From the NCBI RefSeq assembly GCF_009914755.1, contig NC_060935.1: a stretch of DNA of 64,000 bases; one strand, 5' to 3'. Positions 41,352 through 47,600 of this stretch are shown piece by piece (the first letter of the stretch is position 1; each line of letters opens with the position of its first letter). The position numbers and the translations under genes are program-made. This stretch comes from the human T2T-CHM13v2.0 reference genome, Homo sapiens. Under the pieces are notes generated by a model, which was not told the origin of the DNA, did no database searches, and saw nothing but the letters and a program-made list of their open reading frames with translations.

Positions 41352-43785
<2,434 letters not shown>

Positions 43786-44324
43786 TTATCTCCTCTCTTG
43801 CTTTTGTCACTTGGGAGCCCTTCATTCTTCAGGCTCCTCTTTCAGAAATTTTGCCCACTTCAGTCTGCACCTTCTTCCACAACTCTCAAAATCTACCCTT
43901 TATCCTGCTGCAATTCTCCATCTCATAGACCCCATTTAGTGTCAGACTAAATCCTTCTAGCCCATCCTCCATCCTTTTCTCAAACATTTCCCTATGAGCT
44001 CCCAGTCACAGCTTTTCTCCCAATATCCAAGTGTCCTCTGTCAACACATTACCAAGTCTTCTCTTTCTCCTCCATATGTTCCCACTTCCCTCTGAACCAG
44101 AGACTCCTCTTTGCTTCCTTTGATCCTGGCCTCCGCCTTCAGCCCCAGAAGCTCTTTTCCTCACTTCCACTCTCTTTTATTTTAGGCTCAGACTCTCTCC
44201 TTTCCTTTCTCAACTTTACCCCTTCAGTGTCAATAATGTTCTGTCTGGCTCTAATTTCTCCTCTGACTTTCAGTACTTCTCCTGTCTGCCTCTTTCCTTC
44301 TTTGGTGTCAATCCTTCATCTGCC

Positions 44325-45926
44325 TCATTCACTGGTACCTTCACCTATAATATCTTTTTTTTCCATAGAAACAGATTCATCAGTGATATCTTTCACTTCA
44401 CTCAAGATGCCCCCCTCAACTCCCACTCCTTTCTCAGTCCCTTGTAGTTCCTCACTCCCTTTGACACTTTCAAAAGGAATTTCCATCTCATCATGAGTAA
44501 ATGCCATCACTCTTTCATCGCCAGTAACTTCTACCACTTTTTCAATGTTCTTCTCATTTATGCTCCCCATTCTTGAACCCTCCAATTTCTCCCCGCTGGT
44601 CCCTAACTTCTCCTCACTAGATCTCAGCTTCTCCGCACTTGACCCCAGCTTCTCTCCACTCAACCTCAGCTTCTCTCTGCTTGATCTCAGCTTCTCTCCA
44701 CTGGTTCCCAGCTTCTCTCTGCTTGATCTCAGCTTCTCTCCACTCAACCTCAGCTTCTCATCACTTGTTCCCAGCTTCTCTCCACTCAATCTCAGCTTCT
44801 CTCTGCTTGATCTTAGCTTCTCTCCACTCAACCTCAGCTTCTCTCTGCTTGATCTTAGCTTCTCTCCACTCAACCTCAGCTTCTCATCACTGGTTCCCAG
44901 CTTCTCTCCACTCAACCTCAGCTTCTCTCTGCTTGATCTCAGCTTCTCTCCACTCAACCTCAGCTTCTCTCCACTCAACCTCAGCTTCTCATCACTGGTT
45001 CCCAGCTTCTCTCCACTCAACCTCAGCTTCTCTCTGATTGATCTCAGCGTCTCTCCACTCAACCTCAGCTTCTCATCACTGGTTCCCAGCTTCTCTCCAC
45101 TTGATCTCAGCTTCTCTCCACTAGTTCCCAGCTTCTCTCCACTCCATCTCAGCTTCTCTCTACTTGATCTCAAATTCTCTCCACTTGATCTCAGCTTTCT
45201 GCCACTGGACCTCAGCTTCACTCCACTGGACCCCTGCTTCTCTCCCCTGCACACCAGCTTCTCACTAGTAGACCTCAGCTTCTCTACACTTGATCTCATC
45301 TTGTCTACACTAGACCTCAACCCCTTCTCATCCTGTCCCAGTTTATATCCATTGGATCTCAAGTCCTCTCCACTGGTCCCTACCTTCTCCCCAGCAGACC
45401 TCAACCTCTCTTCAAACCCAGACCCCTTCATAGGCCCTGCTGTCATCCCTGCACTCTTAGATTTAGCCTTTATTTCGTGTTTGACCTCTTGCTTTCCCCA
45501 AATACCCCTTGGGCTGTCTTTCCCCAAATCTGCTGAAGCTTGTGATGCACTTGCTCCACGGTATAGCAGCTTCACATCCATCCTTTCCTGACTCGGGCCT
45601 GACTTCCCTTTCAAGACCGTCTTTTCCACATCTTCCAGTCTCCAGTACTCAGACTCCAGCTTCGGCTTTCGAGTGTTTCTAGTCAGGAGCTCCACTCTCT
45701 TCCCAATTACCATGAGCCCGTTCCAAGGTCCCCAGGTTTTCTCTCGCAGCATCGGCACCCCCTTGCAGCCCCGCTCCAGTGGCGACCGTTCGCGGACCCC
45801 GGCCTCGCTTGGGGCGCCCTGGCCGCGGGACTTGTGGAGCTCCCTAGTCCTCCTAGGCTGCTTACCCCGCCGCTCCCTCCCGTCCAAGAGCGGAAACCTA
45901 AACAGACCCCCCTTCTCCACAGACAT
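44325..45926 (-). CDS. Candidate unrecognised protein-coding ORF, 533 aa from ATG 45926 (545 aa from ATG 45962), with 39 tandem 7-aa repeats
   Basis: 1.6-kb uninterrupted frame; ATG context ACAATGT (A at -3); ~170 unique N-terminal codons and ~85 acidic C-terminal codons are also stop-free; begins just inside the SNX32 CpG island in divergent orientation. Confidence 0.55.
   Translation of the reverse strand: MSVEKGGLFRFPLLDGRERRGKQPRRTRELHKSRGQGAPSEAGVRERSPLERGCKGVPMLREKTWGPWNGLMVIGKRVELLTRNTRKPKLESEYWRLEDVEKTVLKGKSGPSQERMDVKLLYRGASASQASADLGKDSPRGIWGKQEVKHEIKAKSKSAGMTAGPMKGSGFEERLRSAGEKVGTSGEDLRSNGYKLGQDEKGLRSSVDKMRSSVEKLRSTSEKLVCRGEKQGSSGVKLRSSGRKLRSSGENLRSSREKLRWSGEKLGTSGEKLRSSGEKLGTSDEKLRLSGETLRSIREKLRLSGEKLGTSDEKLRLSGEKLRLSGEKLRSSREKLRLSGEKLGTSDEKLRLSGEKLRSSREKLRLSGEKLRSSREKLRLSGEKLGTSDEKLRLSGEKLRSSREKLGTSGEKLRSSREKLRLSGEKLGSSAEKLRSSEEKLGTSGEKLEGSRMGSINEKNIEKVVEVTGDERVMAFTHDEMEIPFESVKGSEELQGTEKGVGVEGGILSEVKDITDESVSMEKKDIIGEGTSE
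44589..45407 (-). repeat. 21-bp minisatellite, 39 units (minus-strand consensus ~AAGCTGAGATCAAGTGGAGAG)
   Basis: Visible on + as ctcagcttctctccact...; 819 bp = 39 x 21 with no phase break. Confidence 0.95.
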
Positions 45927-46560
45927 TGTCCCCTGCCCTCGCCCCTGGTCCACCACCCACATCCCCACCACTGCTTCCCATTCCCTGTCCCCACCCTGCC
46001 ACCCTCACCCTCTTCCCCTTCCCCTTCCCCTTCCCCACTGCCTGGTGGGCGCCAAACTGGGCGAGTGCGCACGCGCAGGCCGCACGTGGCCGTTGGAAGG
46101 AGGGGCCCGGAACGGCGGCACGGGGTTGTTGTGGGGGTCAGTCCCCCGGGGACTGGAGGGAGACGCGGCACGCGGCCTCTGCGACCCTATGAACTCTGAC
46201 CCCAGCTCCCACACTGTCGCCTATCACCGGCCCACTCTCCGTGCCGCGTGTCCCTTAAAAGCTGGGGCCTGGGACAGGAACGACAGACAATGCAGCCAAT
46301 GGCGTCACGCGCGGTGCCCCGCTACCCAATCGAAAGGCGTGGCTGAGGGAAACGCGGTGGGAACCGCCCCCGACTCCAGGCGACTCCTTGGCCGGGCGGG
46401 GGAGAGCGTCCCCGTCAGCTGAGAGCATCCTCACTCGGTCAGTTCCTCGGGCGAGTTACGGGGACGACCTGCGGGAGCACGCGGGCAGTGGCCGGACGCT
46501 GAAGCCCAGGAGAGCGATGGAGACGTATGCGGAGGTTGGGAAGGAGGGCAAGGTAGAGAA
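45700..46560. promoter_or_regulatory. SNX32: CpG-island promoter of SNX32, probably bidirectional
   Basis: CCAAT at 46296-46300 and 46326-46330, GC boxes ~46365 and ~46394, CRE-like GGCGTCA ~46301, NRF1 motif TGCGCACGCGCA 46066-46077, CACGTG 46083-46088, E2F-like TTTGGCGC (minus, 46056-46049). Confidence 0.85.
46517..46552 (+). CDS. SNX32: SNX32 exon 1 coding part (METYAEVGKEGK)
   Basis: GCGATGG strong Kozak context; donor AAG|gtagag; joins exon 2 in frame. Confidence 0.92.
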
Positions 46561-46626
46561 AGGATGAAGACCCCCACCCCAGCCTCCCCTCACTCCATGA
46601 AAGCCCGTGATGCCCAATCATGCGGT

Positions 46627-47600
46627 GGTGTGTGTGTGTCTGTGTGTGTGTGGTCTGCCTCTGTGTGTTTCTGTGTGTGTCTGTGTGTGTATAGTCTGCA
46701 TGTGTCTGTTTCTCTGTGTGTCTGTGTGTATGTCGATGTGCCTGCATATGTCTGTGTGTGTGTGTATCTGTGTATGTCTGTATTTGTGTCTCTGTGTGTC
46801 TGTGTGTCTGTGTGTGTCTCAGTGTGTGTCTGTGTCTTTGTGTGTCTCTGTGTATCTGTGTGTGTGTCTGTGTGTCTCCGTGTCTCTGTGTGTGTGTGTA
46901 TGGCCTGTGTGTGTCTGTGTGTGTGCACGTATGCGTCCATGTGGGTGTTTGTGCGTGCATGTCTGTGTCTGTCTCTGTGTGTGTCTGTGCATGTCTGTGT
47001 GTGTGTGTCTGTGTGTCTGTGTCTGTGTATGGTCTGCGTGTGTCTTTGTGTCTGTGTCTGTCTGTGTGTATGGTCTGCATGTGTGCATGTATGCATCTGT
47101 GTGTGTCTCTGTGTGTATCTGTGTGTGCACGCATGTGCCTGTGTGTGTCTGCGCAGGTCTGTGTCTCTTTGTGTCTGAGTGTGTGTCTGTCTCTGTGTCT
47201 ATGTATGGTCTGCGTGCATCTTTATGTCTGTGTGTGTGTGTCTCTGTGTGTGTGTATGGTCTGCGTGTGTCTGTGTGTGTGTGTCTGTGTATTTCTGGGT
47301 CTGTGTGTGTGTTTGCATGTGTCTGTGTGTGTCTGTATCCGTGTGTCTTTGTATATCTGTGTGTGTCTATGTCAGTGTGTCTGTGTGTGCATCTGTGTGT
47401 GTCTGTGTGCCTGTGTATGATCTGTGTATGTCGTTGTGTGTGTCTGTGTGTGTGTTTCTCTGTGCCTGTGTGTTTGTGTGTGTCTGTGTATCTGTGTGTG
47501 TTTCTATGTGTGTCTGTGTGTGCGTGTGTCTGTGTTTGTCTCGTGTGTCTGTGTGTGTGTATGTGCCCATGTGTCTCTGTGTGTATGTGTGTGTCTGCGC
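46627..47600. repeat. ~1-kb compound (TG)n/(TGTC)n low-complexity repeat at the start of SNX32 intron 1
   Basis: Directly visible; it produces the spurious Cys/Val and His/Thr ORFs in the track. Confidence 0.97.

What the first reader, a model, noticed from the sequence alone, without database searches (positions are those of the whole stretch)
44325..45962. Intact 533-545 aa heptad-repeat ORF transcribed head-to-head with SNX32
Seen: a stop-free minus-strand frame of 1.6 kb starting ~590 bp from the SNX32 ATG, inside the same CpG island. It has three parts: a basic unique N-terminus (~170 aa), 39 x 7-aa repeats (KLRSSGE/KLRLSGE/KLGTSDE), and an acidic tail (VVEVTGDE...EVKDITDES). The unique flanks are also open, whereas sequence just past the stop hits stops frequently in the frames I read. 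Even the most diverged units (DLRSNGY, KLGQDEK, KLVCRGE) keep exact 21-bp phase. A minus-strand AATAAA lies at 44181-44176, so a single-exon mRNA is possible, although it lacks a GU-rich downstream element. I do not recognise a named gene here. Inference: an unannotated or poorly annotated protein-coding gene, plausibly germ-line expressed, encoding a disordered Ser-rich, charge-alternating phosphoprotein. Gly/Ser content argues against a classical coiled coil despite the heptad period.
Basis: partly seen in the sequence, partly recalled or inferred. Interest (0 to 1): 0.9.

Follow-up and report, generated by a model that had tools for sequence, protein, structure and literature searches.

The report
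Conserved unstudied heptad-repeat gene near SNX32
The long open reading frame next to SNX32 is real and is kept intact across placental mammals, so it is most likely a genuine protein-coding gene, but public annotation already lists it as an unnamed predicted gene and nothing is known about what it does.

Summary
Window 44325-45962 (minus strand) is a 545-codon ORF with a basic N-terminal part (184 aa), exactly 39 in-phase 7-aa units, and an 88-aa acidic tail. The non-repeat flanks are open far beyond chance: 1 of 5000 and 0 of 5000 shuffles had no stop.

The ORF is not unannotated. It is exactly the CDS of RefSeq LOC124902693, which has four Gnomon models and no curated record.

Three protein searches returned 72 predicted proteins from about 58 placental species in all four superorders. 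They share the three-part layout, and 33 of 43 aligned species end within 3 residues of the human stop. The gene tree follows the species tree. The unique parts have no human paralogue and no match in Pfam or the PDB. I found no paper on the gene.

Verdict: a real, fast-evolving, placental-wide orphan gene, already in databases but uncharacterised. My functional reading, a disordered and strongly charged protein with many phosphorylatable repeats, is inference only. Germ-line expression could not be tested. The structure predictor was closed.

The parts
43728..46250 (-). First exon of all four RefSeq Gnomon models of LOC124902693. It holds the whole CDS. A GT splice donor lies just beyond its 3' end at 43727-43726.
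   Evidence: Annotation table; donor sequence read.
45963..46250 (-). Annotated 5' UTR, 288 nt, 70% G+C. It contains one out-of-frame upstream ATG at 45981, whose 27-codon ORF overlaps the main ATG.
45600..46600 (.). CpG-rich stretch shared with the SNX32 promoter. It acts as a bidirectional promoter region: the annotated starts are at 46250 (minus) and 46414 (plus), 164 bp apart.
   Evidence: CpG observed/expected 0.54-0.89 and G+C 0.57-0.71 in 200-bp bins; composition profile; annotation supplied with the finding.
45411..45962 (-). Codons 1-184, the basic non-repeat N-terminal part (pI 10.4). Start ATG at 45962-45960. The second in-frame ATG, at 45926 (codon 13), matches the predicted start of many non-primate orthologues.
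45573..45752 (-). Codons 71-130, the most conserved segment of the family. It holds the near-invariant W-x-P-W-N-G-L-I/M-V-I-G-K-R-x-E-L-L stretch.
   Evidence: Invariant columns R73, W77, P79, W80, N81, L83, V85, I86, G87 and others. Mean consensus frequency is 0.83 for residues 71-100, against 0.59 for residues 24-70.
44592..45410 (-). Codons 185-457: 39 in-phase 21-bp / 7-aa units. The family-wide consensus is EKLRSSG. The commonest human variants are EKLRLSG x10, EKLRSSR x5, EKLGTSD x4 and EKLGTSG x3. The array is net basic (pI 10.4).
44328..44591 (-). Codons 458-545: the last degenerate unit plus the acidic C-terminal tail (pI 4.4). The tail is conserved from armadillo, sloth and elephant to human.
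44325..44327 (-). TGA stop codon. In the 43-species alignment, 19 sequences (the human row and 18 others) end at exactly this aligned position, and 14 more end 2-3 residues later.
44176..44181 (-). AATAAA, 144 nt after the stop. It is a possible poly(A) signal for a single-exon mRNA. Its use was not tested.

Best explanation
Window 44325-45962 (minus strand) is the coding sequence of a genuine, single-copy gene found across placental mammals. RefSeq already lists it as the predicted gene LOC124902693. It is transcribed divergently from the CpG-island promoter it shares with SNX32.

Shown here. The ORF and its three-part layout are real. The non-repeat flanks are open beyond chance. Colinear predicted orthologues occur in all four placental superorders. 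The gene descends vertically, because the gene tree matches the species tree. The unique parts have no human paralogue and no Pfam or PDB relative.

Inferred. Selection mainly keeps the frame, the length and the composition. The conserved elements are a short N-terminal core (residues 71-130), the heptad pattern and the acidic tail. Elsewhere residues change quickly. The product is most likely a non-secreted, largely disordered, strongly charged protein, built as a long basic region (about +46 net charge over residues 1-457) followed by an acidic tail (about -13).

Each heptad offers one or two serines with a basic residue two or three positions before them and an acidic residue three positions after. 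In muroid rodents, ruminants and armadillo the units read ...RRGS... or ...KRGS.... From recalled knowledge, these are the contexts preferred by basophilic kinases and by CK2-type kinases. My best guess at mechanism is therefore a multivalent, phosphorylation-switchable polyampholyte scaffold. The conserved core and acidic tail would act as docking modules, and the number of heptads would set valency.

The confidence below applies to 'real conserved protein-coding gene, already annotated, orphan family'. I put the mechanistic part at only about 0.3.
For: - ORF and anatomy.
- Flanks open beyond chance: 1 of 5000 (N flank) and 0 of 5000 (C flank) shuffles had no stop, while the other two sense frames carry 7 and 9, and 6 and 14, stops.
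- The CDS matches the RefSeq Gnomon CDS exactly.
- Homologues: 26 hits, 61 hits and 31 hits, giving 72 distinct proteins from 59 named taxa by my count of the listings. They include primates, rodents, rabbit, carnivores, artiodactyls and whales, rhinos, bats, a mole, armadillo, sloth and elephant.
- Several entries come from annotation pipelines other than Gnomon ('hypothetical protein' or 'unnamed protein product' in Diceros, Rangifer, Capra, Camelus dromedarius, Vulpes, Lynx and Lemmus).
- Layout: 71 of 72 proteins carry the N-core motif, and 57 of 72 carry both the core and the far C-terminal motif, using my own regular expressions.
- Of the 43 aligned species, 19 (the human row and 18 others) end at the human stop position, 13 end 3 residues later and 1 ends 2 residues later.
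- Conservation is uneven along the protein, highest in residues 71-100.
- The tree of 43 species recovers Euarchontoglires (support 98), Laurasiatheria (99), Carnivora (99) and Xenarthra (98). The nine taxon labels need the minimum of 8 changes; 0 of 200 label shuffles did as well.
- Single copy: the N part and the tail match only themselves in the human genome.
- No signal peptide or membrane segment: the highest 19-residue hydropathy window scores 0.25. All three parts fall on the disordered side of the charge-hydropathy boundary.
- The heptad consensus E-K/R-L/R-R/G-S-S-G is shared by 23 of 23 species examined.
Against: - I saw no expression, ribosome-profiling or peptide evidence of any kind.
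- All human models are computational (XM_ records).
- In all four models the stop lies 597 nt upstream of a splice junction. By the usual 50-55 nt rule (recalled) this predicts nonsense-mediated decay, unless the AATAAA at 44176 is used.
- The longest model shares its last two exons with the lncRNA OVOL1-AS1.
- An out-of-frame upstream ATG overlaps the start codon.
- Amino-acid divergence is very high. Human versus macaque is 161 of 184 identical in the N part and 81 of 88 in the tail. Human versus orangutan is 174 of 184. By my rough estimate from recalled genome-wide divergences, this is close to what unconstrained codons would show.
- Catarrhines have lost five residues next to the core, and macaque and colobus changed an otherwise conserved Gly in it.
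- Orthologues are predictions. Species in which the frame is broken would simply be missing from protein databases, so the sample is biased towards intact copies.
- I could not obtain any non-human DNA, so there is no dN/dS or PhyloCSF test.
- The structure predictor was closed, so disorder is inferred from composition only.
Confidence: 0.85

Rival explanations
1. The transcript is a long non-coding RNA, a promoter-upstream or divergent transcript of SNX32 that reads into OVOL1-AS1. On this view the ORF is a by-product of a stop-free 21-bp minisatellite in purine-rich DNA, and Gnomon calls it coding only because it is long.
For: - The array is also open on the opposite strand, as a 348-aa plus-strand ORF at 44545-45591.
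- The minus strand is purine-rich from about 43800 to 45900.
- There are only Gnomon models; the CDS sits in the first exon with introns downstream; and the longest model shares its 3' exons with OVOL1-AS1.
- An upstream ATG overlaps the start codon.
- No paper was found on the gene.
Against: - Composition does not explain the open flanks. The other two sense frames are full of stops, and shuffles almost never give an open flank.
- The purine-rich stretch continues past the stop codon, yet there the same frame closes repeatedly.
- The unique N and C parts are conserved and colinear, 33 of 43 aligned species end within 3 residues of the human stop, and the family spans all four placental superorders.
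- Conservation is uneven, peaking in a 30-60 residue core.
- No Rfam family matches 43000-47000.
Confidence: 0.06
2. The gene codes for a functional protein in most placentals, but in catarrhine primates, humans included, constraint is relaxed. On this view the human ORF is intact but drifting, and may no longer be needed.
For: - Human and macaque are only 86-90% identical in every N-terminal segment, the core included.
- Catarrhines have a 5-residue deletion next to the core. Macaque and colobus have Glu at a core Gly that every other aligned species keeps, and human has Met where non-catarrhine species mostly have Ile (one Val, one Phe).
- The catarrhine stem branch is long, at 0.17 changes per column.
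- The human repeat array is expanded to 39 units with near-identical DNA copies.
Against: - The frame is intact over all 545 codons in human, over 544 in rhesus macaque and over 432 in colobus. It is also intact as far as the partial orangutan record goes.
- By my rough estimate, unconstrained sequence of this length should have picked up stops or frameshifts since those lineages split.
- The C tail is 92% identical between human and macaque.
- Fast change could equally reflect disorder or positive selection.
Confidence: 0.1
3. A rival for mechanism only: the heptads form a regular structure, either a long alpha-helical coiled coil or a single stable helix, so the protein is a rod-like structural or cytoskeletal element rather than a disordered scaffold.
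For: - The array keeps a strict 7-residue period with Leu at a fixed position and E/K/R pairs spaced 3-4 residues apart.
- A family profile weakly matches a designed coiled coil (8qae, E = 5e-4) and a coiled-coil adhesin construct (7o23, E = 1e-3).
- Automatic names given to some orthologues (golgin-like, cingulin-like, trichoplein-like) come from coiled-coil proteins.
Against: - Only one position per heptad is [12 protein letters not shown] hydrophobic, so the two-position hydrophobic seam that defines coiled coils is missing.
- Every unit carries Gly plus one or two Ser.
- The region lies on the disordered side of the charge-hydropathy plot.
- The PDB matches are weak and confined to the repeat. 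No Pfam coiled-coil family reaches its cut-off.
Confidence: 0.15

Closest known systems
RefSeq LOC124902693 (human, Gnomon models XM_054370686.1 and XM_047445894-6.1) and its predicted 'uncharacterized protein LOC...' orthologues in other placentals
   Same: This is the same object. The annotated CDS is exactly window 44325-45962. The orthologues share the N core, the heptads and the acidic tail.
   Different: Nothing differs in sequence. 
Proteins whose names were automatically lent to orthologues: cylicin-2, Ycf2, seminal vesicle secretory protein 2, golgin A6-like, cingulin-like, ERC2-like, trichoplein-like, EFCAB5, titin homolog
   Same: They resemble this protein only in being charged, repetitive, low-complexity sequence. 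The repeat alone also matches other human repeat arrays at 30-35% identity, such as those at chr15 20-30 Mb.
   Different: The labels disagree from species to species for one and the same orthologue. No Pfam family of any kind reaches its cut-off in 15 members or in the isolated flanks. The unique N and C parts have no paralogue in the human genome. I treat these names as annotation artefacts.
Single-coding-exon, tandem-repeat, fast-evolving mammalian structural genes, for example involucrin-type genes of the epidermal differentiation complex (comparison recalled, not tested)
   Same: The whole CDS sits in one exon. There is an internal array of short peptide repeats whose number differs between species, from about 10 to 40 units here. 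Sequence evolves quickly.
   Different: The genomic location differs. No S100 or other known head domain is present. The repeat is Ser/Gly/charged rather than Gln-rich. No expression data were available here.
Phospho-regulated tandem-repeat tails such as the heptad C-terminal domain of RNA polymerase II (analogy recalled, not tested)
   Same: Both have dozens of Ser-rich 7-residue units in strict phase, which suggests a multivalent platform read through phosphorylation.
   Different: The consensus is unrelated. Here the array is a free-standing protein, flanked by its own conserved core and acidic tail. No phosphorylation data were seen.
OVOL1-AS1 lncRNA (NR_108085.1)
   Same: Same strand. The longest LOC124902693 model ends in the same two exons, 1469-1905 and 3230-3336/3552.
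   Different: OVOL1-AS1 as curated starts more than 40 kb downstream of the ORF and does not contain it. The four papers that mention it were seen only as search listings.

Membership tests
Placental LOC124902693 orthologue family (unnamed) | A conserved N-terminal core containing the W-x-P-W-N-G-L-(I/M/V)-V-I-G stretch | tested here: met
   Human residues 77-87. 71 of 72 retrieved proteins carry the motif; the one without it is an N-terminally truncated 209-aa record. The invariant columns are listed.
Placental LOC124902693 orthologue family (unnamed) | A central array of 7-residue units with consensus E-K/R-L/R-R/G-S-S-G | tested here: met
   Human has 39 in-phase units. The same consensus appears in 23 of 23 species examined.
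Placental LOC124902693 orthologue family (unnamed) | An acidic C-terminal tail that is colinear with the family's and ends at the same stop position | tested here: met
   The human tail aligns end to end with armadillo, sloth, elephant, dog and lemur. Of the 43 aligned rows, 19 (human and 18 others) end at the human stop position and 14 end within +2 or +3 residues.
Placental LOC124902693 orthologue family (unnamed) | Single-copy vertical descent (orthology) | tested here: met
   There is no paralogue of the N part or the tail in the human genome. The gene tree follows the species tree. Synteny in other species could not be checked.
Protein-coding gene, as opposed to lncRNA | An ORF preserved beyond chance and across species | tested here: met
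   Shuffle tests; predicted orthologues in 59 named taxa.
Protein-coding gene, as opposed to lncRNA | A codon-level signature of purifying selection (dN/dS or PhyloCSF) | not testable with these tools
   No non-human mammalian DNA was reachable. Protein-level identities show fast change.
Protein-coding gene, as opposed to lncRNA | Evidence of transcription and translation | not testable with these tools
   No reads, CAGE, Ribo-seq or mass-spectrometry data were available. Full-text searches gave 0 papers. Supplementary tables were closed.
Cylicin, and the other families whose names were lent automatically | A match to the family's Pfam domain(s) above the curated cut-off | tested here: not met
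   No Pfam family reaches its cut-off in the human protein, in 15 members, or in the isolated flanks.
Canonical coiled coil | Hydrophobic residues at two positions per heptad (a and d), with few helix breakers | tested here: not met
   Only one position is [12 protein letters not shown] Leu. Gly and Ser-Ser occur in nearly every unit. Only weak PDB matches were found.
Secreted or membrane protein | An N-terminal signal peptide or a hydrophobic segment | tested here: not met
   The highest 19-residue Kyte-Doolittle window scores 0.25, at residues 76-94. No dedicated signal-peptide predictor was available.
Known structured RNA | A match to an Rfam covariance model | tested here: not met
   0 matches at gathering score over 43000-47000 on both strands.

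The most novel reading that the evidence does not exclude
LOC124902693 encodes a previously unstudied protein family present across placental mammals, with no detectable relative. Its coding minisatellite sets the number of phosphorylatable heptads, from about 10 to 40 units between species and possibly variable between people. Because it shares a bidirectional promoter with the brain-enriched SNX32, and its long transcript spans the OVOL1-SNX32 interval that disease-association studies treat as intergenic, it could be an overlooked candidate gene at that locus.
Probability: 0.25. Interest if true: 0.7.

Novelty: already known. Interest (0 to 1): 0.4.

Why it matters
The ORF is already in RefSeq, so nothing new is discovered at the level of annotation.

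- The frame, the layout and (within 3 residues, in 33 of 43 aligned species) the stop position are shared across all four placental superorders.
- The gene is single-copy.
- It belongs to no described family.
- I could find no paper on it.

Genes of this kind, with a long conserved ORF, only a LOC number and no literature, are easily left out of candidate-gene lists. One example is an Alzheimer's disease short-tandem-repeat association study, which I read only as passages. It describes its signal between OVOL1 and SNX32 as intergenic and discusses only those two genes. By the distances that paper gives, the signal lies within the span of the longest LOC124902693 model.

The coding 21-bp array is also a plausible site of protein-length variation. 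If translation is confirmed, the gene deserves a name, curation and a knock-out. A mouse-type orthologue exists in the databases.

Tried and rejected
**Domain and fold searches.** Pfam on the whole human protein, on 15 family members and on the isolated flanks gave nothing above cut-off. The weak hits (TTHA0829-like ACT, DUF16, DUF3540, UPF0449, tape measure) all lie in the repeat and are compositional. The PDB searches returned only heptad-driven weak matches for the family profile, nothing for the N part, and one hit at E = 1.3 for the tail. The ESM Atlas holds the exact sequence but gave no usable neighbour and has no model of it.

**Paralogue search in the human genome.** The N part and the tail match only themselves. 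The repeat alone matches many unrelated repeat arrays at 30-35% identity (chr15 20-30 Mb, PAR1, acrocentric short arms). I rejected these as compositional.

**Rfam.** No match.

**Literature.**
- 0 papers for LOC124902693.
- 0 papers for six orthologue LOC ids.
- 0 papers for accessions.
- 0 papers for four peptide strings.
- 0 papers for SNX32 + PhyloCSF.
- OVOL1-AS1 is mentioned in 4 papers, which I saw only as a search listing.
- SNX32 + VNTR gave one review (passages read). It led to the STR association paper (passages read). That paper concerns a dinucleotide repeat elsewhere in the interval, not the 21-bp array.
- I tried two older clone-based lncRNA names recalled from memory. The 5 listed papers did not obviously concern this locus, and I did not open them.
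- Gene, ORF and peptide lists usually sit in supplementary files. These were closed and I did not request them, so zero full-text hits does not show that the gene is absent from such lists.

**Other steps that led nowhere.**
- I looked in the window for the published dinucleotide-repeat allele string and found no match. I did not pursue it.
- My first attempt to anchor the C tails with a regular expression was [12 protein letters not shown], so I replaced it with 'last 100 residues'.

**Ideas considered and rejected.** A beta-solenoid or antifreeze-type repeat (one weak Pfam hit in 1 of 15 members), an amphipathic lipid-binding helix (only one hydrophobic position per unit), and a secreted seminal protein (no hydrophobic N-terminus).

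**Limits of the homologue sample.** No marsupial, monotreme or non-mammalian hit appeared in the three protein searches. Those searches are word-seeded, length-limited and restricted to named sources, so 'placental-wide' is a minimum range, not a proven origin.

**Rows left out of the tree and.** From the 72 proteins I took one per species (42 plus human). I dropped isoforms and second records: P0004, P0005, P0009, P0016-P0025, P0029-P0032, P0037, P0040, P0042, P0043, P0048, P0050, P0052, P0055, P0059, P0065, P0067, P0071. I also dropped the partial orangutan record, P0001.


Full report
**1. The observation**

Translating window 45962->44325 on the minus strand gives 545 codons followed by TGA. 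The frame is open from a stop at 46007 down to 44327. The mechanical ORF list shows it as 44325-45971, 548 aa counted from an upstream GTG.

A script cut the protein at its own landmarks:
- residues 1-184 are unique and basic (pI 10.4; 39 K+R against 22 D+E);
- residues 185-457 are exactly 39 heptads in unbroken 21-bp phase (pI 10.4; 62 Ser/Thr and 34 Gly in 273 residues);
- one more degenerate unit and an acidic tail run to residue 545 (pI 4.4).

The commonest units are EKLRLSG (10 copies), EKLRSSR (5), EKLGTSD (4) and EKLGTSG (3). In the middle of the array they are nearly identical at the DNA level and form 42- and 63-bp higher-order periods. The AATAAA at 44181-44176 is present. The ATG-to-ATG distance to SNX32 is 555 bp, not about 590. 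Only about the first 360 bp of the ORF lie in the CpG-rich stretch at roughly 45600-46600.

**2. Is it more than chance?**

A stop-free 21-bp unit makes an open frame on its own. The array is indeed also open on the opposite strand, as a 348-aa plus-strand ORF. The minus strand is purine-rich from about 43800 to 45900, which lowers the frequency of stops.

The non-repeat flanks are what decide the question. In the N flank the other two sense frames have 7 and 9 stops, and in the C flank 6 and 14, while the ORF frame has none. Dinucleotide-preserving shuffles gave a stop-free frame in 1 of 5000 (N flank) and 0 of 5000 (C flank). The purine-rich composition continues past the stop codon, yet there the same frame closes at 44318, 44141, 44051, 43994 and onward.

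**3. What is annotated**

The annotation file shows four transcripts of LOC124902693. All are Gnomon XM_ models, and all have the CDS 65826325-65827962, which is window 44325-45962. So the ORF is already in public annotation, but only as a computational prediction.

The CDS lies entirely in the first exon (43728-46250). Every model then splices onward from a GT donor at 43727. The longest model ends in the two exons of the lncRNA OVOL1-AS1. The annotated start at 46250 is 164 bp from the SNX32 start at 46414, which makes this a divergent promoter.

The 288-nt 5' UTR has one out-of-frame ATG at 45981, whose 27-codon ORF overlaps the main ATG. A stop lying 597 nt upstream of a splice junction would, by the usual rule (recalled), invite nonsense-mediated decay, unless the AATAAA 144 nt after the stop is used. 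I could not test which happens.

**4. Relatives**

I ran three protein searches.
- The human N part (residues 1-185) found 26 proteins.
- A profile of 11 family members found 61.
- The N part of the Apodemus protein found 31.

Together these are 72 distinct proteins from 59 named taxa, by my count of the listings, and every one is a placental mammal. They include apes and monkeys, a lemur, squirrels, marmot, beaver, mole-rat, rabbit, many muroid rodents, dogs, foxes, bears, panda, seals, mustelids, cats, hyena, meerkat, camels, hippo, whales, reindeer, goat, sheep, rhinos, horseshoe bats, a mole, armadillo, sloth and elephant. One EukProt record, XP_017173811.1, has an organism name cut off at '[Mu'.

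Most are named 'uncharacterized protein LOC...'. The rest carry mutually [12 protein letters not shown] automatic names (cylicin-2, Ycf2, seminal vesicle secretory protein 2-like, golgin A6-like, cingulin-like, EFCAB5, titin homolog). Several come from annotation pipelines other than Gnomon.

The sequences and the 15-species alignment show the same three parts everywhere: a basic N part with a near-invariant core, heptads, and an acidic tail.

- 71 of the 72 proteins have the core motif, and 57 have both the core and the far C-terminal motif.
- The 15 without both are truncated records, three cases my regular expression missed, and three divergent tails (mole, rabbit, sand rat).
- Of the 43 rows in the one-per-species alignment, 19 (the human row and 18 others) end at the human stop position, 13 end three residues later and 1 ends two later. 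Reindeer and goat run 27 residues further and a ground squirrel 14. Seven end earlier, mostly partial or divergent records.
- The human sequence just after the stop still resembles the ruminant extension, so the stop has moved in those lineages.

**5. Descent and rate**

I built a maximum-likelihood tree from the N piece plus the last 100 residues of 43 species (274 columns kept). It recovers Euarchontoglires (support 98), Laurasiatheria (99), Carnivora (99) and Xenarthra (98). The nine taxon labels need only the minimum of 8 changes, and 0 of 200 label shuffles did as well. The unique parts have no second copy in the human genome. This is a single-copy gene inherited vertically since at least the placental ancestor.

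It evolves fast. Human versus macaque is 60/70, 54/60, 47/54 and 81/88 identical in the four non-repeat segments. Human versus dog is 17/40, 47/60, 26/54 and 52/88. Conservation is uneven: the mean consensus frequency is 0.83 for residues 71-100 against 0.59 for residues 24-70.

By my rough estimate from recalled genome-wide divergences, the primate amino-acid differences are near what unconstrained codons would show. In contrast, the intact frame in every sampled lineage is not what unconstrained DNA would show. I read this as selection on frame, length, composition and a few short motifs, which is typical of disordered proteins. Without non-human DNA I could not compute dN/dS. Also, because broken copies never enter protein databases, the sample is biased towards intact ones. 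Catarrhines show extra changes in the core, namely a 5-residue deletion and, in macaque and colobus, a Gly-to-Glu change. Relaxed constraint in our own lineage therefore remains a live rival.

**6. What the protein looks like**

No Pfam family reaches its cut-off in the human protein, in 15 members or in the isolated flanks. The N part has no PDB match, and the tail has one at E = 1.3. A family profile gives only weak, repeat-driven matches to a designed coiled coil and an adhesin construct. The Atlas holds the exact sequence but offers no neighbour or model. The structure predictor was closed, so no fold search was possible.

From sequence alone:
- there is no hydrophobic segment (best 19-residue window 0.25);
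- all three parts lie on the disordered side of the charge-hydropathy boundary;
- charged residues make up 0.33-0.42 of each part.

The heptad has one fixed Leu, one Gly and one or two Ser, which does not make a coiled-coil seam. Across 23 species the unit keeps E at position 1, K/R at 2, S at 5 and/or 6, and G/R at 7. Muroid rodents have a 14-residue double unit reading ...ERRGSIREKVSDSG..., and ruminants and armadillo have ERRGSRG-type units. A basic residue two or three positions before Ser and an acidic residue three after are, from recalled knowledge, the contexts of basophilic and CK2-type kinases.

My working model is a multivalent, phosphorylation-switchable polyampholyte. Its long basic arm carries about +46 net charge and its acidic tail about -13. 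The conserved core and the tail would serve as docking modules. I put this at about 0.3.

**7. Expression**

The only hint is indirect. SNX32, the promoter partner, is described as predominantly brain-expressed in a paper I read as passages.

**8. Literature and locus context**

Searches for the gene id, six orthologue ids, accessions, four peptide strings and SNX32 + PhyloCSF returned no paper. Supplementary tables, where such genes and peptides are usually listed, were closed and not requested.

A short-tandem-repeat association study of Alzheimer's disease (PMC13237113, passages read; reached through a review) calls its signal between OVOL1 and SNX32 intergenic and discusses only those two genes. 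By the distances it gives (about 13.2 kb from OVOL1 and about 23.5 kb from SNX32), the signal lies near window 22.9 kb. That is inside an intron of the longest LOC124902693 model. This shows only that the gene is being overlooked. It does not show that the gene is involved.

**9. Verdict**

The coding interpretation is well supported, at 0.85. The novelty of the ORF itself is nil, because RefSeq has it. The family is an uncharacterised placental orphan. The mechanism is inferred, and expression is unknown.

Noticed in passing
window 44545-45591, + strand: A 348-aa ATG-started ORF runs antisense through the 21-bp array. Plus-strand frame 2 has stops only at 43948, 44494 and 45589. It looks like a by-product of a repeat unit that lacks stops in that frame, and it does not extend into the conserved flanks.
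   Followed up: partly
window 46628 to beyond 47000 (SNX32 intron 1): A long GT-rich microsatellite (periods 2 and 10, at least 370 bp) starts about 75 bp after SNX32 exon 1, next to the shared promoter. This stretch is masked as repeat in the annotation file.
   Followed up: no
about window 22.9 kb (estimated from distances given in a paper, not located in the sequence): A published Alzheimer's disease STR association signal, described as intergenic between OVOL1 and SNX32, would fall inside an intron of the longest LOC124902693 model. The paper does not consider this gene (passages read). A search for the allele string found no match in the window, and I did not pursue it.
   Followed up: partly
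window 44200-44324, minus strand (just after the stop): Read on in frame, the sequence after the human stop still resembles the 27-residue C-terminal extension of the reindeer and goat proteins. The stop position has therefore shifted in ruminants, and by 14 residues in a ground squirrel.
   Followed up: partly
orthologues P0015-P0021 (dingo): The predicted dingo isoforms measure 406, 399, 392, 378 and 364 aa, differing by multiples of 7 residues. This suggests length variation inside the array in the underlying transcript evidence, either allelic or an alignment artefact.
   Followed up: no
window 45573-45752 (codons 71-130) compared with the orthologues: There are catarrhine-specific changes in the otherwise most conserved segment. 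A 5-residue block present in all non-catarrhine species is lost. Macaque and colobus have Glu at a core Gly that every other aligned species keeps, and human has Met where non-catarrhine species mostly have Ile (one Val, one Phe).
   Followed up: partly
window 43494-43722: A masked repeat ends in an A-rich tract on the plus strand (43648-43719). It lies immediately beyond the splice donor of the first exon. It looks like a retroposon tail, but I did not identify it.
   Followed up: no
human genome, chr15 20-30 Mb, chrX/Y about 0.32-0.34 Mb, and the acrocentric short arms: The heptad array used alone as a protein query matches many other repeat arrays at 30-35% identity, some open and some full of stops. 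I judged these to be compositional matches, not paralogues.
   Followed up: no
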